Below are positions 27,965 through 51,321 of a stretch of DNA of 64,000 nt, in pieces. The position numbers and the translations under genes are program-made. Position 1 is the stretch's first letter. The number at the start of each line of letters is the position of its first letter. The notes under the pieces were generated by a model. That model saw only the letters and a program-made list of their open reading frames with translations. It was not told the DNA's origin and did not search any database. The stretch spans positions 235,641 to 299,640 of the forward strand of contig JBMORT010000006.1 in NCBI GenBank assembly GCA_049319825.1, written 5' to 3'. Origin of the DNA: Patescibacteria group bacterium (GTDB lineage: Bacteria; Patescibacteriota; Patescibacteriia; UBA11705; DATKZF01).

Positions 27965-28007
27965 TCGTTGATATACGCAGTTGGCGGTCAGCTTTAAACC
28001 GCTGCGC

Positions 28008-28182: not shown

Positions 28183-29823
28183 ATGAAAAAATTTTTCATT
28201 TTTCTTTTCATTTTACTTTTTATAATGGCTGGAGGGTTCACCCGAGCAGCGGAAATGGCTGATTATGTCAACATTGGCGCGCCAGCAGGGAGTTTTTTCA
28301 ATTCCGATTTTGACGTTTTGGTCATGGATATTGAAATACCCGATAACTCCGGACAGAGCGACATGCTCGAAGCGATTACCGTAAAAAACAACGGCAGCGC
28401 GCAAGCGTTGCGCAATATCGAAAAAGTGGCGATTTGGGTTGATGCCGGTCCGGTTGGGTTTGACGGTATGGGAGTCGATGAGTTTTTGGGATACGCGGCG
28501 CAAGATGGATACAGCATTTGGTATTTATCCGATATTTATCGTGGCGTTCCGGTCGGCGGGTTGCGTGTTTTCGTGTCGATTGAAACCGCTTACAGTTTTT
28601 CAACCACGACCACTACGCAGTTTTCCGTGCCGGCGCTTTTTGATGAAAATGGCAATGGCCGTTTTGATTACGGCGATACCGGTATATTCGTATCATCGGA
28701 AAACGATGGTCCGACCGACGAAGCCATTGTGAATTCGGCTTCACAAGAACTTCACAAATTGTCTTTTGATTATTTATCGCCAAAAGCGGTTATAGATAAT
28801 TTGAGCGATGGCGACTCCATATCCATTTCTTCCGGTGAGGTAACGATCACCGGACAGGCGCGCGATCGCGGCGGATCGTACCCGGCCGCCGTGTCAATTG
28901 GTATTAATGGTCAATGGTTTGAGGTGGAGAATACCGGAACATATTTTTCCGCTTGGCAATATCAATGGTTTGACTTTGGAACGCAGTCGAGCCACGAGAT
29001 TATCGTCCGCGCCACTGATTTTATAGGCAATCAGTTTGTTTCCGCGCCGATTAATGTGACGGTTGTGGGCACGGGCGATTTTACGTATGAAAATTCGATC
29101 ATCGAAACAGCCGTTTCTTCGGCCGATATCGATCAGACGGTTGATGTCACCGTTCATGTAATCGACAGCTATGGCGAACCGGTTTCCGGCGTTCAAGTCG
29201 ATTTGTTTTCATCAAAGGCTGGATATGATCAAATAACGGCCATTAATAATATCACCGATTCTGATGGTCAAGCTTTTTTCGCCATCACTTCCGGTTTGCC
29301 GGGCACGACTTTGTTTTACGCCATGATCGGCGACCAGTTGCTTGAATGGAATATCGGCGGACAATCAATTCCGGTCTCGACGGTGCTGACCATCAGCAGC
29401 GGCGCGGAATTGGCCGGCCGGCTGGTGAAGTCCACGGAATTGTCAACCGTTTATTTGCTTGATGAAGACAATATCCGCCATGCTTTTCCCAATGAAAATA
29501 TTTATCGGTCATGGTTTGACGATTTCAGCCGGGTGGAAGTGCTTTCGGCTCAGGAAATCGCCGCTTATCCGCTTTCCAGCAACGTAAAATACAAACCGGG
29601 CAGTATGATAAAAATGCCGTCGGTGCCGCGAGTGTACATGGTTGATCAAGATCATAATTTGCGCTGGCTGGAAAATCAAAATATCGCCTTCATGCTTTTC
29701 AGTTCAAAGTGGGCATCACGTATCGATGATATGTCCGAGGCATTTTTCAGCGATTATCGGGAAGGGGAGACGATTCTCGAAGCGAATATGTCGATTGAGG
29801 TGTTCAGGAGTTTGTTGCCCTAA
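28183..29823 (+). CDS. secreted protein with bacterial Ig-like (Big) domain and C-terminal shared ~120-aa surface domain
   Basis: Signal peptide MKKFFIFLFILLFIMAGGFTRAAE. Big-like VDVTVHVIDSYGEPVSGVQVDLFSS...DSDGQAFFAITSG. C-term TVYLLDEDNIRHAFPNENIYRSWFDDFSRVEV...RVYMVDQDHNLRWLENQ. Confidence 0.55.
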   Translation: MKKFFIFLFILLFIMAGGFTRAAEMADYVNIGAPAGSFFNSDFDVLVMDIEIPDNSGQSDMLEAITVKNNGSAQALRNIEKVAIWVDAGPVGFDGMGVDEFLGYAAQDGYSIWYLSDIYRGVPVGGLRVFVSIETAYSFSTTTTTQFSVPALFDENGNGRFDYGDTGIFVSSENDGPTDEAIVNSASQELHKLSFDYLSPKAVIDNLSDGDSISISSGEVTITGQARDRGGSYPAAVSIGINGQWFEVENTGTYFSAWQYQWFDFGTQSSHEIIVRATDFIGNQFVSAPINVTVVGTGDFTYENSIIETAVSSADIDQTVDVTVHVIDSYGEPVSGVQVDLFSSKAGYDQITAINNITDSDGQAFFAITSGLPGTTLFYAMIGDQLLEWNIGGQSIPVSTVLTISSGAELAGRLVKSTELSTVYLLDEDNIRHAFPNENIYRSWFDDFSRVEVLSAQEIAAYPLSSNVKYKPGSMIKMPSVPRVYMVDQDHNLRWLENQNIAFMLFSSKWASRIDDMSEAFFSDYREGETILEANMSIEVFRSLLP

Positions 29824-29983
29824 GGAGTTAGAGTTACCGTTTGTGGATAAGTTATAAAAAATAATTATTTTAGCTGTATAATGTCAGCAGAAAGAACTAT
29901 AAAATTTATATAAAATTTAGGGCATCTAATTTTGCTCGAATTTAATTATTATTAAAAAAATTTTGCATTTTTTAAAAAAAATT

Positions 29984-32900: not shown

Positions 32901-34216
32901 ATCAATCGCTTACGACCGTGCTGACTGCCATTTCAGCGCCGGCGATTATTGACGCGGCGGATCCGGTGATTTTAACAACGTCACCGGCCAATTCGGCCAG
33001 CGGCGTGGGCATTGCCCAAGATGTGGTGGTAACATTTAGTGAGCCCATGAATACCGGTACCGTGACCCAGACTTCAGTTCCTGATCCCACCGGCTGGTCC
33101 GTCGTTTGGACCTCGGGCAATACGGTGGCCACTTACAGCCATGCAGTAAACTTCAATTCCAGCACAGCCTATACCGAGCAAATTACCGCCGGACAAGATA
33201 CCAACGGACGAAATTTGGCTGCCGGACCGGTGGCCAATCCTTGGACGTTTACGACCGGAGCTCCCAGTGGTGGCGGTGGCGGTGGTACTGTTTCTCCGAT
33301 AAATTATTCCCTCTTGATTAATAATGGCAGCGCACAAACTAATTCATCAATCGTGACCTTAAAGTTATCGGCAGAAAACGCCGCCTATATGTTGATTTCA
33401 GAAGATCCTGATTTTACCGATGCCAATTGGCAAGCATACGCGACGACCAAGACATTTACGCTCAGCAGCGGTTACGGCACCAAGAACGTATACGCCAAAT
33501 TCAAATCTTCAACCAATAATCAGTCAAGCCGAGTTTCGGATTCAATACAATACGTGGAAACAATAACGGAGGAACCGGTAGAGGAACCGACACCCGAGCC
33601 TTCGGAGGGTGAATATCCTTCCGGATTGGTTGCCGGAGATTTGGTTAAAACCTCTGATTCTTCGTCTGTTTATGTGCTTGGCGCCGATTCCAAGCGGCAT
33701 GCTTTCCCCAATGAGGACGTATATTTCAGCTGGTACGCAGACTTTTCACAGGTTAAAGTCATTTCCAGCAGCGTATTGGCTTCGATTCCTTTGGGTAAAA
33801 ACGCAACCATGCGCCCGGGCACTTGGCTGATAAAGGTGAAATCATTGCCGAATGTTTACGCGGTTGAGCCGGGCGGAGTGATCCGTTGGATTGAAAATCA
33901 GGGGCTGGCAGAAGAGTTGTACGGCAGCACTTGGAACGAAATGATCAAAGATGTCAGTGACGCTTTCTGGTCAAATTACACTCCGAATGGCAGTATCAGC
34001 GAAGTTATTCATCCCACCGGCGCGGTTATTCAGTATAATGGCCAAACCGCCATATATTTCATCGAAAACGGCGCTACTCGGTATTTGACGGCAGACGCCT
34101 TTGCCGCCGGGGGGTTCAGGCATATGTTCACGATAAAGAATGTTTCCGGCTCGATCAGTTATCCGGCTGGTGGAGATTATGCTGTCAGCAGCACGATCAA
34201 GATCATGGGATTATAG
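29984..34216 (+). CDS. giant secreted surface protein (about 1410 aa) with a ~215-aa internal tandem duplication, Ig-like domains, and C-terminal shared domain
   Basis: Signal peptide; repeats beginning D-x-D-S-x-YTSAAD. SbsA/Big-like segment DPVILTTSPANSASGVGIAQDVVVTFSEPM. G-rich linker GGGGGG. C-term SVYVLGADSKRHAFPNEDVYFSWYADF. Start could be 29963. Confidence 0.6.
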   Translation: MKKRNNTLSLVSKIISIASICGLLAVPYLADASNFADFGGPGAPAITVGPSSTNVVTMAVTIPDAWNGGAFTADIAKKAGANSFWQGDSLNSIPALGTTSGVGYKEDGTGGFQGTEPVVRDLDADSAYTSAADTTIAGVPPAAGTTITTTKDADWTSVYFYDAVGGGAWSAAADLIFNDDGNVYYDIGPDTLEAGTGAENTLGTLTEPANWGLYYYDAVNGNVYNGGLDWIGRDDDADQVYTSAADVIYIDQADLPLAGNTYYDVVAADQVCSDNSDLAAASCVYTDSGGDCDATDGDTHTYYMGAACGTATDTLIVTGDNWMTTDDTIDNTTDFIKENVAEELTYSAAADATIDGVAPVAGTAIVNAKDADWTLLYFYDAVAGGGWNAGTDLIFNDSGFVYYDIGLDTYIAGNSVENQLGNINEPANWNLFYYDAVNLDAWNNAADWLGTDDGGSGTFSTSADVDVYSTGGLSNADALANFAADCDGGGAGTQACAYTGSAPIDAGDSILVDQGTAAGAAPNAVVDKQADQLIGIGVTNALGNAVNPTDIGSVYIFRDGPSAGWTGDEVLLGAMTRHSVNQNEWRLDISATPQAVSAGGLSIFVTADITATPTHGRTLQFAIPIYNDTGADNIANSDGDLGVFMSSNNDGPLDAGIANGAAQTIDALPPTLQSFTSTTVDGTYGPGSNINVTATYNENIAGGSLMTVTLDNGVNVTLNNIVGSTISGTYTVGVTGSGEDSADLTVASILSESVADSYGNIQGSSAVPGSPNNIADTSAIVIDTTAPTITEVTPVPTPTNNQNPSYTLNTDEAIGLSWAGGCDSVTGAVGTGNQTVTLDADGAGAVLPAATYNCTLTGTDGAGNAGNLIMSAFTVDITAPSITAAQLEDTDNDGYADRIGLTWDEALFDTASAANGFDVTSASDHGSCVGESADPDGTNSVDVDFTCSIPYTDVGDMNLSLTQNAGVRDAAGNQSLTTVLTAISAPAIIDAADPVILTTSPANSASGVGIAQDVVVTFSEPMNTGTVTQTSVPDPTGWSVVWTSGNTVATYSHAVNFNSSTAYTEQITAGQDTNGRNLAAGPVANPWTFTTGAPSGGGGGGTVSPINYSLLINNGSAQTNSSIVTLKLSAENAAYMLISEDPDFTDANWQAYATTKTFTLSSGYGTKNVYAKFKSSTNNQSSRVSDSIQYVETITEEPVEEPTPEPSEGEYPSGLVAGDLVKTSDSSSVYVLGADSKRHAFPNEDVYFSWYADFSQVKVISSSVLASIPLGKNATMRPGTWLIKVKSLPNVYAVEPGGVIRWIENQGLAEELYGSTWNEMIKDVSDAFWSNYTPNGSISEVIHPTGAVIQYNGQTAIYFIENGATRYLTADAFAAGGFRHMFTIKNVSGSISYPAGGDYAVSSTIKIMGL

Positions 34217-34335
34217 AGTTAATATAATAAAAAAGGGCTTTGGCGAGTCCTTTTTTATTTCAAGTTTTGTGGATAAATTGTTTACAATTATTGAAAATAA
34301 TTGTATAATAATAAATGATTTTTTAAAAAAAATAT

Positions 34336-36756
34336 ATGAAATTGAAAATTTTCTCAATGTTTTTAATTTGTTTTGTCGTCGTTGGTGCTTGCGCCGTTTT
34401 CAGCGTGATGCCAGCGACCGCGACAACCGCTGATTTTTTCGAAGTACGATTTGATTCAACAACATTAATGAACAATGATTGGATTTATGTTAAATTCAAT
34501 CAGCATGTTTGGGGAGCTGGGGGAGTGTCATTAAAGCCAAGCGATTTTATCTACACCGATGGCAATGGCGCGGGCATGAGCGCGATCAAATCCGTCGTCG
34601 TTCATAATCCCGGTGACGATTACGCCATATTGGAAATGAATGCCGCCGCTGTCGCTGGAGACACGGCCGATACATTAGAAGCTGATTTTGGCAAAATCTG
34701 GACAGTATCCGGCGGAGCATTGCCCGGCAAAACTCCAGTATCCTTAGTTGACAATAACGGAGCGGGCCCCACTTTATATGCCTATACTGGAACCGGAGCC
34801 GGCGCGGTCGCTCAAATCGGAGCGAGTAATATGATGGTTGAGTTTATGAGCACAACTCTCGGTGCCGGCGGTAACGCATTGCCTACGCCGATATTCTCCT
34901 CGGCTATTTTTCCGCCATATATTGGGCCGTTAAACTCATCCAATTTTACATATACCAATAATGGGGGCGGCGGGGTCGGACAAGGCATCTCTTCGATCAT
35001 TCATTTTAATTTTGGTGACAGCCGTGTTTACCTGAAAATGAATTTAGCGGTTACCGGTGAAATTGGCACTGATTCACTAGATTGCAACGCAACTGCTTTT
35101 GATATGTGGGGAAATCCCTGCGTCGCCACGCCACCGGCGCTGATTCAGGCGGATGGTGGAGCGCCAACGCTGAGCACCGTTGAAACAACGGAAGGGGTCG
35201 GAACCGGGGAGATGGTCTTTATTGATCCGGCGAGAAATGCGCCCGAGCCGATTTTTGGCAACGCTGGCTTTTCCATGCCAATAACCGCAGCGGAGTTAAC
35301 TTATAAAGATAACAATCCAGGCGGTGCCACCTCATTGATCAGTGTCACCCATGCCGTTGGCAATGATTACGCGATCATGAATTTCGACAGATTCGTCGCC
35401 TCAACCGATTTTTCGGTGGATAATATCAGTTCAACCATCACTCCAGGCGTGGATTTATTCAATAATTCAATAATTGGTTCTGCCGTGCTGGCCGACACGA
35501 TCGATCCGGTGATTATCAGTTATTCACCAACAGATAACGCCACCAACGTGTCGATTGATTCACCGTTAGTTGTCGATTTCAGCGAACCGATCAACACCGG
35601 ATCATTAACCGGCACGATTTCGCCTGATCCTGGTAATTGGGTTAACAATTGGAGCAATGGCGACAAAAGAGTCAGCATGACGCATGATCAATATCTTTAT
35701 TTCACACAGTACGTGATTACCAACGGCACAGTTGATGATACCGCCGGTAACTCCATGGGCGGATTTAACGGCTGGGATTTTACCACCAGCAAACGTTCTT
35801 CTGGCGGTTCACTTTACCCAACCAATTATTCGCTTAGAATTAATAATGATGATGTCACCACGAACTCTTTGAACGTATCCCTGGACATTAATGCGGAGAA
35901 TGCCGATAAAATGATGATTTCCAATTATTCGAATTTCATTGATTCCGATTGGGAGGATTTTGACACCGGTAAACTCTGGACGTTGCTTGAAGGCGCCGGC
36001 ACTAAGACCGTCTATATGTTATTCAAAAATTTGAATGGCAATCAATCGATTGTTGTTTCGGATACCATTGAATACGCCGCAGCTGATGACGCGACCACAT
36101 CGAATGTCGATGATGAATCGGATCAAGCCGAGCCAGCCGAGACAATAATGTTTCCTGATGGATTAACGGCGGGAGAATTGGTAAAAGTGATGAACACCTC
36201 GGCTGTTTATTTGCTCGGAGCGGATGGCGATAGACACGCATTTCCCAATGAAGATGTGTACATGAGTTGGTTTGATGATTTTTCCTCGGTAAAAGTGGTT
36301 TCCAACAGCACCCTGGCAAAGATCGCTTTGGGAAAAAATATTACCATGCGTCCGGGAACATGGTTGATAAAAATTAAATCATTGCCAAATGTGTATGCGG
36401 TTGAACCCGGTGGTTTGATTGAATGGATTGAATCGGAGGATTTAGCCGAAGATTTATACGGCAGCGGCTGGAATATAAGGATTAAGGATTTAAGCGATGC
36501 GTTTTGGCCCGATTACAAAAAGAACGGATCAATTACCGATCCGGTCCATCCCTGCGGCACATTGATTCGATACGCGGGAGAAAACAATGTTTATTACATA
36601 GATGCGGACGCTAAGCGATTTATTTCACCGTCGATATTCCAGGCCAATGGATTCAAAGAATCATTCATCGTCGATAATGTGCCCAGCTCGTTTGTGTATT
36701 CGGCCGGCGATGATTTGTCTATCAGCGGCATGACCGCCATGATGTTTGCTCAATAA
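34336..36756 (+). CDS. secreted surface protein (806 aa), paralog of the preceding protein over its C-terminal ~450 aa
   Basis: Signal peptide MKLKIFSMFLICFVVVGACAVFSVMPATA. Shares the DPVIISYSPTDNATNVSIDSPLVVDFSEPIN Ig-like domain, the ...YPTNYSLRINN... domain, and the C-term AVYLLGADGDRHAFPNEDVYMSWFDDF domain. Paralog nucleotide identity ~80% over 36.18-36.5 kb vs 33.65-34.0 kb. Confidence 0.6.
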   Translation: MKLKIFSMFLICFVVVGACAVFSVMPATATTADFFEVRFDSTTLMNNDWIYVKFNQHVWGAGGVSLKPSDFIYTDGNGAGMSAIKSVVVHNPGDDYAILEMNAAAVAGDTADTLEADFGKIWTVSGGALPGKTPVSLVDNNGAGPTLYAYTGTGAGAVAQIGASNMMVEFMSTTLGAGGNALPTPIFSSAIFPPYIGPLNSSNFTYTNNGGGGVGQGISSIIHFNFGDSRVYLKMNLAVTGEIGTDSLDCNATAFDMWGNPCVATPPALIQADGGAPTLSTVETTEGVGTGEMVFIDPARNAPEPIFGNAGFSMPITAAELTYKDNNPGGATSLISVTHAVGNDYAIMNFDRFVASTDFSVDNISSTITPGVDLFNNSIIGSAVLADTIDPVIISYSPTDNATNVSIDSPLVVDFSEPINTGSLTGTISPDPGNWVNNWSNGDKRVSMTHDQYLYFTQYVITNGTVDDTAGNSMGGFNGWDFTTSKRSSGGSLYPTNYSLRINNDDVTTNSLNVSLDINAENADKMMISNYSNFIDSDWEDFDTGKLWTLLEGAGTKTVYMLFKNLNGNQSIVVSDTIEYAAADDATTSNVDDESDQAEPAETIMFPDGLTAGELVKVMNTSAVYLLGADGDRHAFPNEDVYMSWFDDFSSVKVVSNSTLAKIALGKNITMRPGTWLIKIKSLPNVYAVEPGGLIEWIESEDLAEDLYGSGWNIRIKDLSDAFWPDYKKNGSITDPVHPCGTLIRYAGENNVYYIDADAKRFISPSIFQANGFKESFIVDNVPSSFVYSAGDDLSISGMTAMMFAQ

Positions 36757-39623: not shown

Positions 39624-42341
39624 ATGAGTGATGAAAAAATGAAAAATAGGATTTGGCAATTAGGTCAATTCGAAATTAAATTTAAATATATGACATATGA
39701 TTTGAGAAAAGAACTACTCGTGCTGGCTTTAATCGGTTGCCTGCTGCTGATAAGTTCATTTTTTTTCATTCACCAGGCGCAGGCCGCAGATTTTTCCGTA
39801 GTTATCAGTGAGCTGGCCTGGGCCGGGTCGAGCTATTCGGCCAATGACGAATTCATTGAATTAAAAAATTTAACTGACCGGGAAATTGATTTAAGCGGCT
39901 GGAAATTAACCAAGCTTTCCGGCGGACAAGAGCAGGTAATGATCGAATTTCCGCCGGCAGCGATTATCGAATCAGAAAATTTTTTTGTGATATCTAATTT
40001 TGGCAGCGAAGATTCGGTTTTAAATATTGAACCGGACCTGGCAGATAGCGCGGTCAGTTTAAGCAATTCAAATCTGGAAATTAAATTATATGATTCAGCC
40101 GGCATATTAATCGATGTCGCCGGAGACGGCAGCGCGCCGTTTTACGGTGATAACGAATTTAAAGCTTCTATGGTCAGGAATTTTACTATTGGATCAGGTG
40201 AGATTGAATCATCCTGGTCAGGAAGCTTGATCTCGGAAAATTTGGATGCTGACGCCCCTGACTTCGCATCTCCGGCCGCGGAAAATTTTTTAGGAATTGA
40301 TATTATCCCGGCCGCTGACGATTTGACTGCTATCGAAGAGGAGAGCGTCGCTTCTGATGATGAAGTAATTATTGAAAATTTCGCCAGCGATGATGAGACG
40401 ATCAGTGAAGATATGGCCACACAAGACGCGTTGCCGGACATAATTGAAGACGCTGCCTCAGATGATCAGTCAGTGATTATCGAAGATGATACCGGCCAAG
40501 CGCCGCCAATAGCGGGCAAGCTGCTGATCAATGAAATCGCTTTTAAAGAAGATCAAGACTGGGTGGAACTGGCAGTGGCTGAGCAGGGAAATTTTAAGGG
40601 CTGGAAAATATTTCAAGGCGAAAGCTTGATTTCAGAGATAAATCAGGACTCAGTTTATCCACAGGGTAGTTTTATTTTAATAAATTTAGATAAAAATTTG
40701 ACCGGAACTGACAATGTCATAGTCGTGCGAAATGAAAATTATGAAATCGAAGATACGGCGCTTTGGAGCAATCATGATGGCAAATTTACCAAATCAAAGG
40801 CTTTCGCAGTGTACTTGGTCGAAACCGAACAATGGCTGACAAAAAATGATTTTGAAAAAAATGACGAAGTTTCCTGGATCAGCAGCGATGAGCTGAAAGC
40901 GGGCATGAGCTTGGCGCGAGTTTCGGATATTGATACCAATTCCGGCAATGACTGGATTATTACCGCCAAGCAAACGCCCGGACAGGAAAACGAGATTTGT
41001 TTTGCGTCATCGACTGATCCAGTCTCAGATGATCTGAATTCAGCTTCTGATGCATCGAGTGAGGATCTTGATGAAGCAGTATTGCCAATCGATGAGCCAG
41101 TGCCGGTCGATGTGGTCGGAAAGATAGTCATTAATGAAGTTTTAAGCCAGCCTGAAAGCGGGCAGCCGGAATGGGTCGAGATTTACAATTTGTCTGCCGC
41201 GGAGATTGAGGTGACTGATTTTTATCTGCAAGAGGGAAGCGGAACCAAATTTAAACTTAAGGGCAAATTGCCCGCGAAAAAATATATGGTGGTCAACGTT
41301 AAAAATTTAAATAATGCCGGCGACCTGTTGCAGCTGCATACCGGCGATGGTCAATTGCTCGATCAGATGGTTTATGGTTCTTTGGATAACACTCAAATTG
41401 ACTTTGATTTTCAAAAGATCGTATTGCCATATGCGTTAATACGCGACCGCAGCGGATTTTGGAAGCTGACGACATTGCCGACTCCGGGCAGTGAAAATAT
41501 TTTTCAAGAAATGATTGAAGAAAAAGAATCCCAAGTTAGCGGCGTGAAAGCGGTGTCGGTTCAAGCGACATCTTCGTCGAAGAAGACTGCTCAGACGGTG
41601 GCGCAGCCTATCGTTTTAACCCGAGGCAATGTTGATTCGCTTGAAGATGATGACTTGGTTTATTTCGCAGGCACAGTGACGGTCACTCCGGGATTGTTTC
41701 TGAAGCAAAGAATGTACGCTCAAAATGAAGATATCGGCGTGGAAATATATTTTAACAGAGCGGATTGGCCGAATTTGAAAATCGGCCAGCAAATCCGAGT
41801 CAGCGGCAAATTCGCGGCCAAGGATTTGCCTCAAATAAAAATTTATTCAACCGACGATATTCAGGTTTTGGGGAGTGGCGAAGCTGAGCTAAAGGAATTT
41901 AAGCTGGCCGACCAGGAAAATTTAATCGGATTTTTAACCGCCGGCGACGGAGAAGTATCTGAAAAATTGGCCGGAGGATTTAATCTGGTGACCGCCGAAG
42001 GCGATGTGCCGGTTTGCTTTAGGCAAAACGCCAAGCTGGATACCGGTCAGATTGAAAACGGCCAGCGCATATTTGTCAGCGGAATTTTATTGCCATATAA
42101 AGACAGCGTCTGTTTATATCCCAGAATCGATGAGGATATGTCGATTTTGCCGTCCGCGGCAGAGCTGGCCGCTCCGATCAGCGAATCCGTGCCGCTAGGC
42201 GGAAATTTGCCCGCGAAGTCCATTTTGACAGTCGCCGCCGGGGTTTTAGCCGGTGGTTTGGGGGTGATTACATTAATAAAAAAATTAAAATCTTTAAAAA
42301 AGATTTCCCCCCTATGGCCGGGCGTCGGCAACACCAAATGA
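39624..42341 (+). CDS. lamin tail domain (LTD)-containing surface protein with three LTD copies, acidic linker regions and a C-terminal TM anchor
   Basis: LTD signatures VVISELAWAGSSYSANDEFIELKNLTDREIDLSGWKL; KLLINEIAFKEDQDWVELAV...FKGWKI; KIVINEVLSQPESGQPEWVEIYNLSAAEIEVTDFYL. Signal peptide. C-term ILTVAAGVLAGGLGVITLIKKLK. Start may be M at 39690. Confidence 0.6.
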   Translation: MSDEKMKNRIWQLGQFEIKFKYMTYDLRKELLVLALIGCLLLISSFFFIHQAQAADFSVVISELAWAGSSYSANDEFIELKNLTDREIDLSGWKLTKLSGGQEQVMIEFPPAAIIESENFFVISNFGSEDSVLNIEPDLADSAVSLSNSNLEIKLYDSAGILIDVAGDGSAPFYGDNEFKASMVRNFTIGSGEIESSWSGSLISENLDADAPDFASPAAENFLGIDIIPAADDLTAIEEESVASDDEVIIENFASDDETISEDMATQDALPDIIEDAASDDQSVIIEDDTGQAPPIAGKLLINEIAFKEDQDWVELAVAEQGNFKGWKIFQGESLISEINQDSVYPQGSFILINLDKNLTGTDNVIVVRNENYEIEDTALWSNHDGKFTKSKAFAVYLVETEQWLTKNDFEKNDEVSWISSDELKAGMSLARVSDIDTNSGNDWIITAKQTPGQENEICFASSTDPVSDDLNSASDASSEDLDEAVLPIDEPVPVDVVGKIVINEVLSQPESGQPEWVEIYNLSAAEIEVTDFYLQEGSGTKFKLKGKLPAKKYMVVNVKNLNNAGDLLQLHTGDGQLLDQMVYGSLDNTQIDFDFQKIVLPYALIRDRSGFWKLTTLPTPGSENIFQEMIEEKESQVSGVKAVSVQATSSSKKTAQTVAQPIVLTRGNVDSLEDDDLVYFAGTVTVTPGLFLKQRMYAQNEDIGVEIYFNRADWPNLKIGQQIRVSGKFAAKDLPQIKIYSTDDIQVLGSGEAELKEFKLADQENLIGFLTAGDGEVSEKLAGGFNLVTAEGDVPVCFRQNAKLDTGQIENGQRIFVSGILLPYKDSVCLYPRIDEDMSILPSAAELAAPISESVPLGGNLPAKSILTVAAGVLAGGLGVITLIKKLKSLKKISPLWPGVGNTK

Positions 42342-42571: not shown

Positions 42572-44977
42572 GTGGCCACCATTGTTTTTTTGATTCTGGG
42601 CATTGGCTTGGCTTTTAACTCGGCCTTGGCCCAATCTGTGATCGGCGACACATTGGCTCAGGCTTTTGCCTGGATTTTTTACGGTATCGCTTATTTACTC
42701 GGCTGGATCACGATGTTGATTTTTTCCATGGTGATTACCATGAGCGGATTTCAGGATTTCATCAATAATCCCGGCGTCATTACCGGCTGGACCATTGTGC
42801 GCGACATTTGCAACATGTTTTTTGTGGTCATTCTTTTAATCATCGCTTTCGCCACGATTTTGCAAAGTGAAAAATATTCGATCAAGTCGCTTTTGCCCAG
42901 AGTTATTTTTGCCGCCGTGGTTATAAATTTCAGTAAATTGATTTGCGGTTTGATAATAGATTTCGGACAGATTGTCATGTTGACATTCGTTAACGGATTC
43001 AAGGCATCGGCCGGAGCCAATTTAATCAATGGCTTGCGGATGCAAAGCTGGATGTCGCTGGACACGGCCAACGCCAAGGATGTCAATGAAGTTGATTTTT
43101 GGGACATCACGTTGGCTTTATTTTTAGCATGCATTTTATTTTTCTTTACGTTGATCGTGACGATCATCATGCTGGCCATCATCACCATTCGAATTATAAT
43201 TTTATGGATATTGATAGTCCTGTCGCCGTTTGCTTTTGTCGGCACACTGCTGCCGTTTACGCAGTCGCTGGCCCGGCAATGGTGGTCAAAGTTCGGTACC
43301 TGGGTGGCGATCGGTCCGATTTTAGCTTTTTTCTTATGGTTGTCGCTGCTGATGATGCAAACCGGCATCAGCACGGATTTGGACGCGATCACCACCGAAG
43401 CTAACGTAAAATCCCAGATTACAGGCAAAAAACTTCAGGGCGGCAATTTATCGCAAGGATCGTCGATGCCCAATATGGCGCAGTTTGCGGTTGGCGTGGC
43501 CCTGCTTTACGGCGCCGTGACGCTGACGCGTCAAATGGGCGGCGCGGTCGGCGGCGCCATCGGCGGCAAAGTCTTCGGCGCGGCCACTGGTGCGGCGTTT
43601 GCCCTCACCGGCGCCAGAGCGGTGACCGAGCGGGCCAAAGCTGTCAGTGGCGTTTTGCAGCGCCGACGTGCGGAGAGAGTCTCTCGTTTTGGAGAGCGAG
43701 CCGGAGCGGCGATAACCAGAGTGACCGAACCGGTCAGAGCGGCGGCGTTGGGTGCGGCAGTCACACCGTTCAGAGTGTTGGGAGCGCCTCTTCGAGCGCC
43801 TAGGATTTTGGGTGCGATGCGTGAGCGCTACAGGCAAATCCGCGAAGGCGGCGGCGGCAAAGCGCTGGCCGCGCTGAGCGCAGGTATAAAATTACCGAGT
43901 GAGATATTAGATACCAGAAAATTCGCTTCTTCGATTCGAGCGGCCAGAAACAAATCTCGCGGTGCGGCTTATGAATTAAGTCGCAATGAAGTGACTAAAA
44001 ATTTGGCAGATTTTAAAAATGCCAGATTTGATCCGGAGCAATCTGTCCGCTTGATGTCCGAAGCCGGCACGACGGAGGAACAAGTCGCTCATGCTATTTA
44101 CGCGCTCAAAAAAGGCAAAATAACGGAAGAAAATAATAAACCGTTGATGCGATTATTGTCCAAGGTCGAAAATACTCCGCTCGGAGACGTTTTGGCCGAT
44201 GAGACCAATAAAAAATTCGCCCATGCGCGATTTCAGTTGGATAATTTTGATCAACGTCAAAAGTTAATGGAAGTGCACGATGACGGCGATACTGATTTGA
44301 CCAATCTCGATCCCAGCGCTTACAAAGACGCCCGGGTGGTCGAGACAATCATGGAAAAATTCGGCTCGAACGCGGATCAAATGTTTAAAAAAGTTTTTGA
44401 GCGGGGAGGAAAATACGCGGAGAGTTTAGTTGAGGGGCTTAATGCGGTGAACACGCCAGAATTTCAGCAAAGCGTTCGTGATCGGTCCAAAGAATTAACC
44501 GATAAAGGCCCGGCCGAATGGACCGCCTCCGAGGAAAAGGAAGCGGAATTATTGGAAAATGTCATAAAATTCAAGCCGCAGGAGACTGTCGCGAAATTGA
44601 CGACCAAGCCGTTTACCGTCTTCACAAAAGAAACCGATCCGGATATGAAATCTCTTGGGGAATTCGTTAAAAAGCAAAAAGTGGAAGATATTGAAAAATA
44701 TAAAGTTGAAAAAGATTCTGTGGGCAGACAGCGGCTGGCCGGTGCGACCGATGATCAGCGAGCGGCAGTGGCCATGAATGTCGGTTTTGAAAAGCTGGCC
44801 GCGATAATGAAGCGCGGTCAGGGAGACGTGGTTAAAGCCGTCATTAATAAGAAAATAGAATTGGCGTCCGCCGGAAACGTGACGCAAAAGAAAGATTTGC
44901 AAATAGCCATTCAAAATCAAACGTTTATGGATAGCCTTGAACCTGAAATGCAAAAGGAAATTAAAGGAGCCGTTTAA
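42572..44977 (+). CDS. VirB6/TrbL-like polytopic membrane protein with long Ala/Gly/Arg-rich hydrophilic C-terminal extension
   Basis: Signal peptide plus about 7 TM helices in the first ~270 aa (ICNMFFVVILLIIAFATIL; LALFLACILFFFTLIVTIIMLAIITIRIIILWILIVLSPFAFVG), the architecture of T4SS VirB6/TrbL channel subunits. Lies in the same operon-like run as PrgI-like and VirB4. Confidence 0.45.
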   Translation: MATIVFLILGIGLAFNSALAQSVIGDTLAQAFAWIFYGIAYLLGWITMLIFSMVITMSGFQDFINNPGVITGWTIVRDICNMFFVVILLIIAFATILQSEKYSIKSLLPRVIFAAVVINFSKLICGLIIDFGQIVMLTFVNGFKASAGANLINGLRMQSWMSLDTANAKDVNEVDFWDITLALFLACILFFFTLIVTIIMLAIITIRIIILWILIVLSPFAFVGTLLPFTQSLARQWWSKFGTWVAIGPILAFFLWLSLLMMQTGISTDLDAITTEANVKSQITGKKLQGGNLSQGSSMPNMAQFAVGVALLYGAVTLTRQMGGAVGGAIGGKVFGAATGAAFALTGARAVTERAKAVSGVLQRRRAERVSRFGERAGAAITRVTEPVRAAALGAAVTPFRVLGAPLRAPRILGAMRERYRQIREGGGGKALAALSAGIKLPSEILDTRKFASSIRAARNKSRGAAYELSRNEVTKNLADFKNARFDPEQSVRLMSEAGTTEEQVAHAIYALKKGKITEENNKPLMRLLSKVENTPLGDVLADETNKKFAHARFQLDNFDQRQKLMEVHDDGDTDLTNLDPSAYKDARVVETIMEKFGSNADQMFKKVFERGGKYAESLVEGLNAVNTPEFQQSVRDRSKELTDKGPAEWTASEEKEAELLENVIKFKPQETVAKLTTKPFTVFTKETDPDMKSLGEFVKKQKVEDIEKYKVEKDSVGRQRLAGATDDQRAAVAMNVGFEKLAAIMKRGQGDVVKAVINKKIELASAGNVTQKKDLQIAIQNQTFMDSLEPEMQKEIKGAV

Positions 44978-47517: not shown

Positions 47518-47612
47518 GATAATTGTTGATTCTTATAACCCGGATTCCCCGAATAGTTTGCTACAGGCTACATGTTATATGCTATGTGCTACGTGCTCCA
47601 TGTATTATCAAT

Positions 47613-48065
47613 ATGGCTGTCCAAAAATATATCGTTCCACAATTCATCGAAGTCGAAGACAAAATAATCGGTCCGATTACCGTTCGGCAGTTTATATTAC
47701 TTTTGGTCGGCGGCTTGATTATTTTTTTGCTGTGGCAATTCGGCGGTTTGTTGGCGCTGATCGCCGGTGGAATTTTGGATATCGCGGTTTTCGCCGGTTT
47801 GGCCTTTGTCAAAATCAACGGCCGGCCGATTCATTTTTTTCTGCTAAACTTTATCCAAACCATGAAGCGGCCTCGATTGCGTATTTGGAACAAAGAAGCG
47901 TATGTGAGCGCGGTTCATGAAAAAAAAGAGGTGGAAGAAAGACCCATGACCGCCAAAGCGCCCAAACCGGCCATTACCGGTTCGCGGTTGTCCGATTTGA
48001 GCTTGGTGGTCAATACCGGCGGTGTTTATCAGGGAGAAGAATTGTCTCTTGGTAATCAAAAATAA
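47613..48065 (+). CDS. PrgI/VirB3-like small membrane protein of Gram-positive-type T4SS
   Basis: MAVQKYIVPQFIEVEDKIIGPITVRQFILLLVGGLIIFLLW matches the PrgI-family N-terminal pattern (Y-x-VP-x-x-x-x-V-x-D/K-K-I-x-x-x-LT-x-RQ-LI), then two TM helices. ORF opens at 47523 but the M at 47613 is the conserved start. Confidence 0.5.
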   Translation: MAVQKYIVPQFIEVEDKIIGPITVRQFILLLVGGLIIFLLWQFGGLLALIAGGILDIAVFAGLAFVKINGRPIHFFLLNFIQTMKRPRLRIWNKEAYVSAVHEKKEVEERPMTAKAPKPAITGSRLSDLSLVVNTGGVYQGEELSLGNQK

Positions 48066-48068
48066 CAT

Positions 48069-48782
48069 ATGACCAATAAAAGACCGGAAATGCAAAGCGA
48101 AAAACTGAAAAAAAAGAGCGTCAGCCAGTCGACTCAGCTTTTTCTGGACATTTCCGAAATTCGAAACAACACCGTGATTCTAAAAGACGGCACGCTCCGA
48201 GCGGTTATTTTAGTTTCCAGCGTGAATTTTGCTCTCAAATCGGAGGAAGAGCAGCAAGCGATTGTCGCCGCCTATGTGGGTTTTTTAAATTATCTTGATC
48301 ATCCAATTCAAATCGTGATTCAATCCAGGAAATTGAATATCGAAGGATATATCGCGCGTCTGCATGAGCGAGAAAAAGAAGTCACCAACGAACTGTTAAA
48401 AAAACAGATAGACAATTACATACAATATGTTCAAGAACTGGTTGAGCTAGGCGATATTATGAGTAAAAGATTTTTTTTGGTTGTGCCGTACAGCCCGCTC
48501 GAAGAAAAAGCGCAGGCCAAACCGTCCGGATTCTTTTCCAAACTTTCGGCGCTGTTTACTCCCGGACAGGTGATTAAGCTGAAAAAGGAAAAATTTGAAA
48601 AATATTACCGTCAACTGATGCAGCGAGTCGATCATATTCAGGGTAATTTGAACAGCATGGGACTAAAATCTGCTCAGCTGGATACTCAAGGACTGATCGA
48701 GCTGTATTACAATGTTTATAATCCCGGCATGGCCGAGCAGCAGCAACTGAGTGATGTTGAAAAATTAAGGTTGGAGACATAA
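48069..48782 (+). CDS. VirB4/TraE-family N-terminal domain (split from the ATPase domain)
   Basis: TQLFLDISEIRNNTVILKDGTLRAVILVSSVNFALKSEEEQQAIVAAYVGFLNYLDHPIQIVIQS is the conserved N-terminal segment of Gram-positive VirB4 homologues (PrgJ/TcpF type). Stop TAA is 1 nt before the ATG of the next ORF, in a different frame. Confidence 0.5.
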   Translation: MTNKRPEMQSEKLKKKSVSQSTQLFLDISEIRNNTVILKDGTLRAVILVSSVNFALKSEEEQQAIVAAYVGFLNYLDHPIQIVIQSRKLNIEGYIARLHEREKEVTNELLKKQIDNYIQYVQELVELGDIMSKRFFLVVPYSPLEEKAQAKPSGFFSKLSALFTPGQVIKLKKEKFEKYYRQLMQRVDHIQGNLNSMGLKSAQLDTQGLIELYYNVYNPGMAEQQQLSDVEKLRLET

Positions 48783-48783
48783 T

Positions 48784-50712
48784 ATGATAAAACCAATTGG
48801 CATCGAACCCAAAAAAGCGGCTGAGCCGCGTTCAAAGACAACCGAGCAAGTCGAAGCCGAAAAGACCAAAAAAACCATTGAAGAGCAGCGCGTTTACGCG
48901 CGCGGTGTCGTTTCCATTTTGGATTTGGTGGCGCCGTCGGCGCTGGAGGTTAAACCGGATTATATTCGTCTCGGATCCAGGTTTATTCGAACATTGTTCG
49001 TATTGACGTATCCGCGCTATATCAGTGTCGGCTGGTTCGCGCCGATCATCAATTATAACGCCACGCTGGACATCAGCATGTTTTTTTACCCGCTAAAATC
49101 GGATATCGTGTTAAAACAATTGAGAGATAAGGTGGGCGTGCTGCGCGCGCAGCTGACCGCGGATGCGGAAAAGGGCGCGCCGCGCGACCCGATGAGGGAA
49201 ACCGCACTGCAAGATATTGAACAGCTCAGAGACGATTTGACTCAGGGTATTGAAAAGTTTTTCCAATTTTCACTTTACACCACCTTATACGCAAAAAGCG
49301 TTAAAGAGCTCGATGATCTGACCGAAGACGTTGAAGACCTGTTCGGATCAAAATTGGTTTTCACCAAGCGAGTGCTGTATCAATCCGAGCAAGGGTTCAA
49401 TTCGACAGTGCCGATCGGCAATGATGAATTGATGATTTCCGCCAATCTTAACTCATCGCCGATTGCTTCTTCTTTTCCGTTCGTTTCATCCGAATTGACC
49501 AGCGATCAGGGGGTGCTGTTCGGCATCAATCGACACAATAACAGCTTGATTATTTTCGATCGTTTCACTTTACCGAACGCCAATGCGGTGGTATTCGCCA
49601 CTTCGGGAGCCGGAAAAAGCTATACCATTAAATTAGAGGTGCTGAGGACAATGATGCTCGGCACGGATATAATGATTATCGATCCGGAAAGAGAATACAA
49701 GCATTTAAGCGACGCGGTTGGCGGCAGTTATGTCAATATCTCATTGGCCTCGGAAAGCAAAATCAATCCGTTTGATTTGCCTCGCCCCGTCGGCGAGCAG
49801 ACTTCGTCTGAAGACATTATTCGCAGCGCGGTGATTACCTTAAAAGGCTTGATTCGGCTGATGATTGGCGACCTGAGTTATCAGGAGGATTCCATCATCG
49901 ATCAAGCCTTGCTTCAAACATACGCCAAAAAAGATATTACTCCGGAAACCGATCTGACCAAGCCGGTGGAGCCGCCGCTGATGGGCGATTTGTATGAAGT
50001 GCTCGAAGGCATGGAGGGCGGGCATGATTTGGCGCTCAGACTGAAAAAATTCACTGAAGGCACTTTTTCCGGTTTGTTCAATTCTCCGACAAACGTTGAC
50101 GTAAAAAATCAATTGGTTGTTTTTTCTGTAAGAGATTTGGAAGACGAACTGCGTCCGATGGCCATTTATAACATTGTCAGCCATATCTGGAACACGGTCA
50201 GATCTGAATTGCGGCGGCGCATTTTAATTATCGATGAAGCGTGGTGGCTGATGCAGCGAAAAGATTCGGCTGATTTCATCTACGCTTTGGTTAAGCGCTG
50301 CCGAAAGTATTATTTGGGCGTCACCACCATCACCCAAGATGTCAATGACTTTTTGATTTCCACGCAGGGAAAAGCGATCCTGCAGAATTCAGCCATTCAG
50401 TTTTTGCTGCGACAGTCGCCGGCGGCGATTGATTTGGTTCAGGAAACTTTTCAATTAACCGAGGGTGAAAGATATTTATTGCTCGAAGCCGGGGTCGGTG
50501 AAGGCATATTTTTTGCCGGCGACAGGCACGCGGCCATTAAAGTGGTCGCCTCGGGTATGGAGGATCAGCTGATTACTTCCGATCCGCGGCAGCTCCTCGA
50601 GATCGAGCGCGCCAGAAAAGAAATGGAAGAAGAAATGGCTGCCGGGCGAGACCAGCTTCAAACGCAGCGACAGCTGAGACAACAATCCGGGCCGGGCGAT
50701 AAATCTAAATAA
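48784..50712 (+). CDS. virB4: VirB4-like type IV secretion ATPase, C-terminal ATPase domain
   Basis: Walker A VVFATSGAGKSYTIK; Walker B RRILIIDEAWWLM; ITQDVNDF. About 640 aa, consistent with the C-terminal two-thirds of VirB4/TrsE/CagE. Confidence 0.8.
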   Translation: MIKPIGIEPKKAAEPRSKTTEQVEAEKTKKTIEEQRVYARGVVSILDLVAPSALEVKPDYIRLGSRFIRTLFVLTYPRYISVGWFAPIINYNATLDISMFFYPLKSDIVLKQLRDKVGVLRAQLTADAEKGAPRDPMRETALQDIEQLRDDLTQGIEKFFQFSLYTTLYAKSVKELDDLTEDVEDLFGSKLVFTKRVLYQSEQGFNSTVPIGNDELMISANLNSSPIASSFPFVSSELTSDQGVLFGINRHNNSLIIFDRFTLPNANAVVFATSGAGKSYTIKLEVLRTMMLGTDIMIIDPEREYKHLSDAVGGSYVNISLASESKINPFDLPRPVGEQTSSEDIIRSAVITLKGLIRLMIGDLSYQEDSIIDQALLQTYAKKDITPETDLTKPVEPPLMGDLYEVLEGMEGGHDLALRLKKFTEGTFSGLFNSPTNVDVKNQLVVFSVRDLEDELRPMAIYNIVSHIWNTVRSELRRRILIIDEAWWLMQRKDSADFIYALVKRCRKYYLGVTTITQDVNDFLISTQGKAILQNSAIQFLLRQSPAAIDLVQETFQLTEGERYLLLEAGVGEGIFFAGDRHAAIKVVASGMEDQLITSDPRQLLEIERARKEMEEEMAAGRDQLQTQRQLRQQSGPGDKSK

Positions 50713-50727: not shown

Positions 50728-51321
50728 ATGCTAGACAGACTATCAGTCGGATCGAAAATCATCATATTATCCTTAATCGGCATTATCATCATTGCCGCCA
50801 TTGTTTTGGGTTTTTTGTATTACCGACAGCGCCAACAGCCGACCGGACCGGCGGTGATTGATGAAACGACCTCTCCGCCTCGGCAGACGATTATTCCAAC
50901 AGAACCGTCTAAACCGTCGGTGGTATTGCCCGCCATGACCGATGAAGAAAAAAATTCCGAAGAATTGACCAATTTGGCCAAGATTTTTGCCGAGCGATTC
51001 GGCAGTTTTTCCAATCAGGGCGGATTCGATAATTTGGATATTGTTCAGTCGATGGCGACCGACAGCATGAAATCATGGCTGGTCAGTCAGAAAAAAAGCT
51101 TGGAACAGAAGTATCCGATCAGCGATGCGTATTATGGAGTAACCACTCAATCGCCGATCGCCAAAGTATTGAGTTATGGTGAAAATAACGCTTCTGTGCT
51201 GGTAACCACTCAGCGGCAAGAAAGAAAGAATGGTGATGAAAATAATTATACGCAAGACATAAAAATTGAATTTGTTAAAATAAACGGCAATTGGTTAATC
51301 AATGCAGCATACTGGCAATAA
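50728..51321 (+). CDS. membrane-anchored protein (N-terminal TM, Pro-rich linker, ~130-aa globular domain); possibly VirB8-like
   Basis: MLDRLSVGSKIIILSLIGIIIIAAIVLGFLYY TM anchor. The placement between VirB4 and ComFC, and the bitopic architecture, fit VirB8/TcpC-type proteins. No sequence-level proof. Confidence 0.3.
   Translation: MLDRLSVGSKIIILSLIGIIIIAAIVLGFLYYRQRQQPTGPAVIDETTSPPRQTIIPTEPSKPSVVLPAMTDEEKNSEELTNLAKIFAERFGSFSNQGGFDNLDIVQSMATDSMKSWLVSQKKSLEQKYPISDAYYGVTTQSPIAKVLSYGENNASVLVTTQRQERKNGDENNYTQDIKIEFVKINGNWLINAAYWQ

What the first reader, a model, noticed from the sequence alone, without database searches (positions are those of the whole stretch)
48069..50712. VirB4 encoded as two tightly coupled ORFs (N-terminal domain, then ATPase domain) in different frames
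The 237-aa ORF carries the conserved VirB4 N-terminal segment; the next 642-aa ORF carries Walker A/B and the rest of the ATPase. Together they are about 880 aa, a normal VirB4 length. The junction is ...GAGACATAAtATGATA...: stop TAA, 1 nt, then ATG, in a +1 frame relationship. This is either a genuine split into two translationally coupled polypeptides, a recent frameshift (pseudogenisation), or a sequencing error.
Basis: seen in the sequence. Interest (0 to 1): 0.55.

Follow-up and report, generated by a model that had tools for sequence, protein, structure and literature searches.

The report
Conserved two-gene VirB4 (TrsD-like plus ATPase)

Summary
ORF1 (48069-48782, 237 aa) ends in TAA, then comes one base, then ORF2 (48784-50712, 642 aa) starts in the +1 frame.

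ORF1 matches the N-terminal part of fused VirB4 families. Its predicted fold matches only R388 TrwK/VirB4 among solved structures. ORF2 matches the rest and scores above the curated cut-off of the CD1110 VirB4 family. The two matches are collinear and do not overlap.

The split is old and under selection:
- The top 120 database relatives of each half are stand-alone proteins (217-264 aa and 616-678 aa).
- In all 80 species-representative genomes retrieved, the two genes are adjacent and never fused.
- Their spacing runs from -8 to +511 nt, in all three relative frames. Four loci carry an extra small gene between them.
- Synonymous sites are saturated, while pN/pS is 0.12-0.17.

This excludes a recent frameshift, a sequencing error and conserved recoding.

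The cut falls where pGO1 TrsD/TrsE is cut, inside the VirB4 N-terminal domain and not at its border with the ATPase domain. A natural fused form (797 aa) exists in Ca. Colwellbacteria.

The arrangement is published: Quinonero-Coronel 2025 reports 2,272 TrsD homologues in Patescibacteria, 1,664 of them next to virB4. It is ordinary, so interest is low.

The parts
47523..48065 (+). PrgI-family (VirB3-like) small membrane protein gene, directly upstream of ORF1
   Evidence: Pfam PrgI, 35.4 bits against a cut-off of 27, E 1.6e-8. A PrgI-family gene sits in the same position in L001, L003, L089, the Miltoncostaea plasmid and C. perfringens pJFP838A; pGO1 has an unnamed 135-aa ORF there, taken as VirB3-like from its position only. 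The mechanical TTG start is not verified.
48069..48782 (+). ORF1: TrsD-like / 'TraC-like' protein, the detached first half of the VirB4 N-terminal domain (237 aa)
   Evidence: NCBIfam hits to the N-terminus of VirB4_plasma, TrsD/TraD and CD1110. The identical NCBI protein P0001 carries a precomputed PF26593 TraC-like annotation. AlphaFold2 model with pLDDT 85.4; its top 14 PDB fold matches are all R388 TrwK/VirB4. hhalign to pGO1 TrsD covers ORF1 15-219 against TrsD 27-217, E 2.4e-5. An alternative start is M8 at 48090.
48780..48786 (+). Junction: TAA stop of ORF1, one T, ATG of ORF2 (+1 frame)
   Evidence: Read directly from the sequence. The same stop-T-ATG layout occurs in L001/L002, L017, L028, L034, L043, L065 and L078. 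Other relatives have gaps from -8 to +511 nt.
48784..50712 (+). ORF2: VirB4-like ATPase, containing the second half of the N-terminal domain plus the ATPase domain (642 aa)
   Evidence: NCBIfam conju_CD1110, 347.5 bits against a cut-off of 325, positions 167-729 of 752. Pfam P-loop_TraG, AAA_10 and DUF87. PDB 4AG5 VirB4 C-terminal domain, E 5.7e-63, and TrwK residues 446-735. 25% identity to pGO1 TrsE, E 5e-49, starting at ORF2 46 against TrsE 35.
49606..49620 (+). Walker A motif GAGKS (ORF2 residues 275-279)
   Evidence: G275, G277, K278 and S279 are invariant in alignment A2.
50221..50247 (+). Walker B region ILIIDEAWW (ORF2 residues 480-488)
   Evidence: D484, E485, W487 and W488 are invariant in alignment A2.
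42572..44977 (+). Large membrane protein gene, a candidate VirB6-like channel subunit of the same cluster (weak evidence)
   Evidence: NCBIfam pLS20_p028 conjugation transmembrane protein, E 3.2e-4, 19.7 bits, below the cut-off of 150. An 800-920 aa gene occupies the same position in L001-L004.
50728..51321 (+). Conserved 197-aa ORF directly downstream of ORF2, function unknown
   Evidence: No family hit. A 191-197 aa gene sits in the same position in L001 and L003, and a 163-aa gene sits in that position in L089; its similarity to the window ORF was not tested.

Best explanation
[quoted passage not shown] ORF1 is a TrsD-like ('TraC-like') protein that corresponds to the first half of the VirB4 N-terminal domain. 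ORF2 supplies the second half of that domain and the P-loop ATPase domain.

Inferred, not shown: the two polypeptides are made separately and assemble non-covalently, together with the PrgI/VirB3-like protein encoded just upstream, into a VirB4-like unit at the cytoplasmic face of the membrane. That unit would power assembly of, or transport through, the secretion system.

In this genome the 1-nt gap makes co-translation from one mRNA likely, possibly by termination-reinitiation. This is also an inference. No frameshifting is needed and no fused protein is expected.
For: Shown here.

(1) The two ORFs are complementary and collinear with fused VirB4 families. In VirB4_plasma, ORF1 matches positions 93-239 and ORF2 matches 281-893. 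In CD1110, ORF1 matches 19-88 and ORF2 matches 167-729. ORF1 and ORF2 have no similarity to each other.

(2) The ORF1 model (pLDDT 85.4) matches only TrwK/VirB4 chains at the top of the PDB search: 14 hits, probability 0.87-1.00, about 165-200 aligned columns.

(3) The split is conserved. ORF1 has 4,280 homologues, and the top 120 are 217-264 aa. The top 120 ORF2 homologues are 616-678 aa. Of the 150 best 50%-identity cluster representatives, 149 are 132-443 aa.

(4) In all 80 species-representative loci the two genes are adjacent and separate. Gaps run from -8 to +511 nt. The relative frames are 33, 33 and 19 (counts over all 85 sequences, including the window and two duplicate loci).

(5) Both halves are under purifying selection. 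pN/pS is 0.17 for ORF1 and 0.12 for ORF2 against L001, with synonymous sites saturated.

(6) The order PrgI, TrsD-like, ATPase is the same in pGO1 (trsC-trsD-trsE), and the breakpoint is the same. It also appears in actinobacterial and clostridial plasmids, and a similar TrsD-like plus transfer-protein pair, with no PrgI annotated, on a Halobacterium plasmid.

(7) A natural fused form of 797 aa exists in Ca. Colwellbacteria. It is seen in three sequences on three contigs, in the same PrgI context, and it aligns end to end with ORF1 plus ORF2.

From the literature. TrsD is the most abundant T4SS component found in Patescibacteria, with 2,272 homologues, 1,664 of them next to virB4. The TrsD homologue of Ca. 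Southlakia epibionticum is listed as essential (PMC12102498). T4SS genes are essential for epibiotic growth (PMC10633639).
Against: No direct evidence shows that the two proteins bind each other. The attempt to model the fused homologue gave a poor model (pLDDT 53.7), so the interface could not be examined.

ORF1's match to the curated TrsD/TraD model is far below its cut-off (29.7 against 200 bits). The hhalign probability to pGO1 TrsD is only 75.6%.

The local Pfam scan did not report PF26593 for ORF1. That assignment rests on precomputed annotation.

The GGAG located 7 nt before the ORF2 ATG is weak evidence for an independent ribosome-binding site. Only 5 of 45 ORF starts in the window have such a motif, and the bases encode the conserved KLR(L/V)E tail.
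Confidence: 0.9

Rival explanations
1. Recent frameshift mutation: a once-fused virB4 gene has been broken and is decaying into a pseudogene in this genome.
For: In isolation, the stop / 1 nt / ATG junction in a +1 frame relation looks like a single-base indel. The combined length of 879 aa is typical for VirB4.
Against: All close and distant relatives are split as well. Their junctions have different lengths and frames, so a single indel cannot restore a common frame. pN/pS of 0.12-0.17 with saturated synonymous sites shows long-term constraint on both halves. The fused Colwellbacteria protein lacks the ORF1 tail of about 18 aa and the ORF2 leader of about 40 aa, so the junction here is not a fused gene minus one base.
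Confidence: 0.01
2. Sequencing or assembly error at the junction of a metagenome-assembled genome.
For: The source is a MAG, and homopolymer errors are common in some sequencing technologies.
Against: The identical architecture appears in 80 independently assembled species-level genomes and in several sequencing projects. There is no homopolymer run at the junction.
Confidence: 0.01
3. Programmed +1 ribosomal frameshifting at the ORF1 stop codon (prfB-like) produces a fused full-length VirB4 as well as, or instead of, the two separate proteins.
For: A +1 shift at ACA-TAA-T would read into the ORF2 frame. An SD-like GGAG lies just upstream (48773-48776), and prfB uses such an element (plus my own knowledge of prfB).
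Against: There is no slippery codon, because ACA cannot re-pair on CAT. Frame relations in relatives are 33 at +1, 33 at +2 and 19 in frame, with spacers up to 511 nt and inserted genes, so no recoding signal is conserved. ORF2 homologues share a conserved N-terminus (MIKP, MFKP or MAFK) that begins at the ATG. SD motifs are rare in this genome.
Confidence: 0.02
4. ORF1 is an independent accessory factor, an adaptor or regulator that merely descends from a VirB4 N-terminus. It is not a structural complement of ORF2, which would work as a naturally short VirB4 on its own.
For: The literature assigns no function to TrsD (PMC12102498). Many ORF1 homologues carry long disordered C-terminal tails, up to about 440 aa in total. 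The paper reports about a quarter of Patescibacteria TrsD homologues as not associated with virB4, notably in Gracilibacteria. Large spacers and hairpins between the genes would allow unequal expression.
Against: The matches to fused VirB4 models are complementary and non-overlapping. A natural fusion joins the two in the expected order. Adjacency is strict in all 80 loci examined.
Confidence: 0.06

Closest known systems
TrsD/TrsE of Staphylococcus aureus plasmid pGO1 (and pSK41; TraD/TraE of pIP501 according to the NCBIfam family name), MPF-FATA class T4SS
   Same: The gene order matches: a small upstream ORF (taken as VirB3-like from its position; PrgI-family in the window), a 227-aa TrsD and a 672-aa DUF87/VirB4 ATPase. 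The breakpoint is the same: ORF2 residue 46 aligns with TrsE residue 35 (25% identity, E 5e-49), and ORF1 15-219 aligns with TrsD 27-217.
   Different: Sequence divergence is high, and ORF1 scores 29.7 bits against the family cut-off of 200. pGO1 is a conjugative plasmid with a relaxase and a VirD4 coupling protein. The window's cluster is chromosomal, among housekeeping genes (murG, comF, tRNAs). No relaxase or coupling protein was found among the 32 ORFs I scanned; about 14 large ORFs at 12-22 kb and 57.8-63.5 kb were not scanned.
Patescibacteria T4SS as described by Quinonero-Coronel et al. 2025 (PMC12102498) and Wang et al. 2023 (PMC10633639)
   Same: This is the same system. TrsD, VirB4, PrgI/VirB3 and VirB6 homologues are widely distributed and clustered in Patescibacteria. 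The ORF1 and ORF2 proteins are 100% identical to NCBI entries from a 'Patescibacteria group bacterium' MAG.
   Different: Nothing substantive differs. The paper describes TrsD as remotely homologous to the VirB4 N-terminus with no assigned function. It does not spell out that TrsD and the short VirB4 are complementary pieces, and the phrase 'split VirB4' occurs nowhere in the searchable library.
Single-chain VirB4/TraC ATPases (R388 TrwK, PDB 7O41/8RTD; CD1110 family; Mbov_0397 family)
   Same: The ATPase domain and the overall collinear layout are shared. The ORF1 fold matches TrwK, and ORF2 matches TrwK residues 446-735 and the 4AG5 C-terminal domain.
   Different: Those proteins are one polypeptide of 750-900 aa. 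Here the first 200 or so residues of the N-terminal domain are a separate protein.
Fused TraC-like plus ATPase protein of Ca. Colwellbacteria (P0341, 797 aa; MBI3088895.1, MBI2506916.1)
   Same: It has 41% identity to ORF1 and 48% to ORF2 over the alignment (phmmer gave 42% for ORF1). A PrgI gene lies upstream in the same arrangement.
   Different: It is a single ORF. It lacks the ORF1 C-terminal tail and the charged ORF2 leader of about 40 aa.

Membership tests
VirB4-like conjugal transfer ATPase, CD1110 family (NCBIfam NF045971) | Whole-protein score above the curated cut-off (325 bits) | tested here: met
   ORF2 scores 347.5 bits, E 1.5e-103, covering model positions 167-729 of 752. NCBI gives the identical protein the same name.
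VirB4-like conjugal transfer ATPase, CD1110 family (NCBIfam NF045971) | P-loop ATPase C-terminal domain with Walker A and Walker B motifs | tested here: met
   GAGKS at residues 275-279 and DEAWW at 484-488 are invariant in alignment A2. PDB 4AG5 matches at E 5.7e-63. Pfam P-loop_TraG matches at E 8.4e-26.
VirB4-like conjugal transfer ATPase, CD1110 family (NCBIfam NF045971) | Complete N-terminal domain on the same polypeptide (model positions 1-166) | tested here: not met
   ORF2 starts at model position 167. Positions 19-88 are matched by ORF1 instead.
T4SS gene cluster of MPF-FATA type | VirB3/PrgI-like and VirB6-like genes next to virB4 | tested here: met
   A PrgI gene lies directly upstream, above the Pfam cut-off. 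The VirB6-like assignment is weak: pLS20_p028, E 3.2e-4, below cut-off.
T4SS gene cluster of MPF-FATA type | Relaxase and VirD4 coupling protein, needed for a conjugative function | tested here: inconclusive
   None was found among the 32 window ORFs scanned. About 14 large ORFs, at 12-22 kb and 57.8-63.5 kb, were not scanned, and such genes can lie elsewhere in the genome. The literature reports that most Patescibacteria clusters lack a relaxase.
TrsD/TraD family conjugative transfer protein (NCBIfam NF041427) | Score above the curated cut-off (200 bits) | tested here: not met
   ORF1 scores 29.7 bits, E 5.1e-7, positions 13-143 of 201. It is homologous to this narrow subfamily but not a member of it.
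TrsD/TraD family conjugative transfer protein (NCBIfam NF041427) | End-to-end homology to prototype pGO1 TrsD, and a position between the VirB3-like gene and the VirB4 ATPase gene | tested here: met
   hhalign of the ORF1 family profile against pGO1 TrsD gives 183 columns, E 2.4e-5 and a moderate probability of 75.6%. The gene order is identical.
Pfam PF26593 'TraC-like' domain | Match to the Pfam model | tested here: inconclusive
   Precomputed annotation assigns PF26593 to the identical protein P0001 and to all 120 top homologues. The local Pfam scan did not list it at E <= 1, perhaps because the local copy lacks the model.
Programmed +1 frameshift gene (prfB-like recoding) | Slippery P-site codon, and a frame relation and shift site conserved among orthologues | tested here: not met
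   The ACA-TAA-T junction has no re-pairing option. Relatives use all three frames and gaps from -8 to +511 nt.
Pseudogene produced by frameshift | Relaxed selection, and an intact single-ORF gene in close relatives | tested here: not met
   pN/pS is 0.12-0.17. All 80 species-level relatives are split.

The most novel reading that the evidence does not exclude
The detached TrsD-like half may be more than a cut-off piece of VirB4. It could be a separately dosed or exchangeable subunit. Its stoichiometry would be set by the variable spacer, by the hairpins between the genes, and by the disordered tails. It would control when and where the essential Patescibacteria T4SS motor assembles on the PrgI/VirB3 platform. 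On this reading, keeping the genes apart is itself functional, which would explain why fission is retained in thousands of lineages while re-fusion is rare (Colwellbacteria).
Probability: 0.12. Interest if true: 0.5.

Novelty: already known. Interest (0 to 1): 0.15.

Why it matters
For annotation, the message is practical. The stop / 1 nt / ATG junction must not be 'repaired' or flagged as a pseudogene. ORF1, deposited as 'hypothetical protein', can be named a TrsD-like / VirB4 N-terminal subunit.

For biology, the locus belongs to the chromosomal T4SS that the literature reports as essential for the epibiotic lifestyle of the one Patescibacteria strain tested. Anyone modelling or purifying the motor needs both polypeptides, and probably PrgI as well.

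The only modest additions here beyond the literature are these:
- The two proteins are complementary.
- The breakpoint is shared with pGO1 TrsD/TrsE.
- The cut lies inside the N-terminal domain.
- A natural fusion exists in Colwellbacteria.

Tried and rejected
- **The search for related loci with the ORF1 alignment** failed because no stretch was conserved enough. The survey was therefore seeded with the ORF2 alignment. It is limited to the best 80 loci, at 66-73% identity to ORF2, so it samples one large clade and not the whole phylum.
- **Profile search of ORF1 against PDB sequences** found nothing relevant. Only the fold comparison reached TrwK, and its output gives no target residue ranges. 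Placement of ORF1 on the TrwK N-terminal domain therefore rests on the NCBIfam coordinates.
- **AlphaFold2 of the natural fused homologue**, meant to show how the halves pack, gave an unusable model (pLDDT 53.7, pTM 0.30).
- **dN/dS proper** could not be computed because synonymous sites are saturated (pS 0.78-0.87). pN/pS is reported instead.
- **The GGAG before the ORF2 ATG** was considered as a ribosome-binding site and then down-weighted. Only 5 of 45 ORF starts in the window have such a motif.
- **Guglielmini 2014**, the cited source for the TrsD/VirB4 homology, does not mention TrsD in its main text. **Wallden 2012**, the 4AG5 paper, is not held. My recollection that the crystallised Thermoanaerobacter VirB4 is itself a short, ORF2-like form could therefore not be checked.
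Full report
**Observation.**
- ORF1 runs 48069-48782 (+, ATG, 237 aa) and ends in TAA.
- A single T follows at 48783.
- ORF2 runs 48784-50712 (+, ATG, 642 aa), in the +1 frame relative to ORF1.
- ORF2 has a Walker A motif (GAGKS, residues 275-279) and a Walker B region (ILIIDEAWW, residues 480-488).

**What the two ORFs are.**

ORF2 is a VirB4-type ATPase:
- It exceeds the curated cut-off of the NCBIfam 'VirB4-like conjugal transfer ATPase, CD1110 family' (347.5 against 325 bits), matching model positions 167-729 of 752.
- It also matches positions 281-893 of 894 of the Mbov_0397 VirB4 family.
- It has Pfam P-loop_TraG, AAA_10 and DUF87 domains.

ORF1 matches the N-terminal parts of the same fused families: VirB4_plasma 93-239 (E 2.6e-13) and CD1110 19-88. 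It also matches the stand-alone TrsD/TraD family at positions 13-143 of 201 (E 5e-7).

The two sets of coordinates are collinear and do not overlap, and ORF1 and ORF2 have no similarity to each other. ORF1 is therefore the missing piece of ORF2 and not a duplicate of part of it.

An AlphaFold2 model of ORF1 built on 40 homologues is confident (pLDDT 85.4). Its 14 best matches among solved structures are all chains of R388 TrwK/VirB4 (probability 0.87-1.00, about 165-200 aligned columns, TM up to 0.47).

**Where the cut lies.** The ORF2 family profile aligns from position 253 onward with the crystallised VirB4 C-terminal ATPase domain (4AG5, E 5.7e-63). Its positions 278-574 align with TrwK 446-735. 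ORF2 therefore still carries about 210 residues of N-terminal-domain sequence (about 41-250), preceded by a charged leader of about 40 residues. The cut is inside the N-terminal domain and not at its border with the ATPase domain.

**Is the split real and old?** Yes.
- The ORF1 protein is 100% identical to an NCBI 'hypothetical protein' from a Patescibacteria MAG. It has 4,280 homologues at E <= 1e-3, and the 120 best (56-79% identity) are all 217-264 aa.
- The 120 best ORF2 homologues (70-89% identity) are all 616-678 aa.
- An exhaustive search of 1.8 billion 50%-identity cluster representatives found 2,514 ORF1 relatives. Of the best 150, 149 are 132-443 aa, the longer ones carrying disordered Pro/Ala/Gln-rich tails. 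One is 797 aa.
- I retrieved 80 species-representative genome loci with the ORF2 alignment and measured every junction. The ORF1 homologue lies directly upstream of the ORF2 homologue in all of them, and the two are never fused.
- The distance from stop to start ranges from -8 to +511 nt. It is 10 nt or less in 37 of the 85 sequences. The relative frame is +1 in 33, +2 in 33 and 0 in 19. These counts include the window and two duplicate loci.
- The window's stop-T-ATG layout recurs in seven other loci.
- In four loci an unrelated small gene sits between the two halves, flanked by inverted repeats. It is a four-helix-bundle protein (TIGR02436) or a GxxExxY protein (TIGR04256).
- Between the window and relatives at 63-85% protein identity, synonymous sites are saturated (pS 0.78-0.87). 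Non-synonymous divergence is low (pN 0.10-0.25). Against L001, pN/pS is 0.17 for ORF1 and 0.12 for ORF2.

Together these results exclude a recent frameshift, a sequencing error and any conserved recoding signal.

**Context.** The neighbourhood is conserved in relatives, in this order:
1. a large membrane protein, weakly VirB6-like
2. two genes of unknown function
3. a PrgI/VirB3-like gene
4. ORF1
5. ORF2
6. a 190-197 aa gene of unknown function
7. comF

The window is chromosomal. It carries tRNAs, murG, a P-type ATPase, a sigma factor and polysaccharide-synthesis genes. No relaxase or coupling protein was found among the 32 ORFs scanned; about 14 large ORFs were not scanned.

**Comparison with known systems.** Plasmid pGO1, the prototype of one MPF-FATA subclass, has the same layout: trsC (taken as VirB3-like from its position), trsD (227 aa), trsE (672 aa, DUF87).
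- ORF2 aligns with TrsE at 25% identity over 590 residues (E 5e-49), starting at ORF2 46 against TrsE 35.
- The ORF1 family profile aligns with TrsD nearly end to end (15-219 against 27-217, E 2.4e-5, probability 75.6%).

The breakpoint is therefore shared. The PrgI / TrsD-like / DUF87 triad also occurs on a Miltoncostaea (Actinomycetota) megaplasmid and C. perfringens pJFP838A, and a similar TrsD-like plus 'transfer complex protein' pair, with no PrgI annotated, on a Halobacterium plasmid.

The 797-aa exception is a true fusion from Ca. Colwellbacteria. It is present as three sequences on three contigs, downstream of PrgI and near dnaA. It aligns with ORF1 and then ORF2 in order, omitting only the ORF1 tail and the ORF2 leader. 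This natural fusion indicates that the two halves act as one unit.

**Literature.**
- Quinonero-Coronel et al. [quoted passage not shown] They count 2,272 homologues, 1,664 associated with VirB4. They state that no function is assigned, and that the homologue in Ca. Southlakia epibionticum is listed as essential.
- Wang et al. 2023 (PMC10633639) found the T4SS cluster essential for epibiotic growth, with no recognisable relaxase or coupling protein.
- The phrase 'split VirB4' does not occur in the searchable library.

The arrangement itself is therefore already described in exactly this phylum.

**Mechanism.** Shown here: the two proteins are complementary, conserved, adjacent and under selection, and a natural fusion exists. 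Inferred:
- The two polypeptides assemble non-covalently, with the PrgI/VirB3-like protein, into a VirB4-like motor at the membrane.
- In this genome the 1-nt gap probably couples their translation.
- The GGAG 7 nt before the ORF2 ATG is weak evidence for a dedicated ribosome-binding site. Such motifs precede only 5 of 45 ORF starts in the window, and the bases encode a conserved C-terminal KLR(L/V)E motif.

**Limits.**
- No interaction data exist.
- The model of the fused homologue was unusable.
- The survey covers one large clade at 66-73% identity.
- The PF26593 assignment rests on precomputed annotation, not on my own scan.

**Verdict.** The feature is ordinary and already known, so interest is low.

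Noticed in passing
L005:3376-3456, L014:3347-3443, L061:3285-3395, L072:3433-3493; L008:2903-3359, L071:2914-3356; also L009 and L068 (the spacer between the two VirB4 halves in relatives; not present in the window): In many relatives the spacer between the two genes holds long imperfect inverted repeats, with arms of 27-54 nt. In four loci the spacer instead holds a small gene flanked by inverted repeats, for example 20 nt at 100% complementarity, 417 nt apart, in L008. The gene is a four-helix-bundle protein (TIGR02436) or a GxxExxY protein (TIGR04256). These look like hairpin cassettes, either empty or loaded, that colonise this intergenic site repeatedly.
   Followed up: partly
window 10539-11063 (+): A 174-aa ORF matches only positions 13-78 of 360 of the DegT/DnrJ/EryC1 aminotransferase family. 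It sits inside a polysaccharide-synthesis cluster and may be a truncated or fragmented gene.
   Followed up: no
window, all large + strand ORF starts: Only 5 of 45 mechanically called starts have a Shine-Dalgarno-like motif. Leaders are AT-rich and nearly all genes lie on one strand. This suggests mostly SD-independent initiation in this genome.
   Followed up: partly
window 47523-48065, 48069-48782, 48784-50712, against NCBIfam SCO6880_fam: The 477-position actinomycete SCO6880 family model is hit weakly by three ORFs in order: the PrgI-like ORF (12-95), ORF1 (240-293) and ORF2 (364-476). This hints that actinomycetes fuse VirB3 with the whole VirB4 N-terminal domain and cut the module at a different place.
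   Followed up: no
L005, L006, L009 and many other genome-contig loci: Dozens of the retrieved MAG records are titled 'uncultured Gammaproteobacteria bacterium', and single ones Planctomycetota, Methylomirabilis or Bipolaricaulota. Yet they carry this Patescibacteria-type locus at about 70% identity, so the record titles look like placeholder or wrong taxonomy.
   Followed up: no
window 24269-36756 and 39624-42341 (+): A run of very large ORFs (1231, 561, 1417, 806 and 905 aa) lies just upstream of the T4SS genes. They carry bacterial Ig-like or lamin-tail domains, and their G+C is higher (up to 0.55) than the rest of the window (about 0.40-0.45). They may be surface or adhesin proteins.
   Followed up: no
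window 48762-48779 (ORF1 C-terminus) and 48784-48795 (ORF2 N-terminus): Both termini created by the split are conserved among homologues: ORF1 ends in KLR(V/L)E and ORF2 begins with MIKP or MFKP. Neither motif is present in the fused Colwellbacteria protein. They could be docking or processing motifs specific to the split form.
   Followed up: partly
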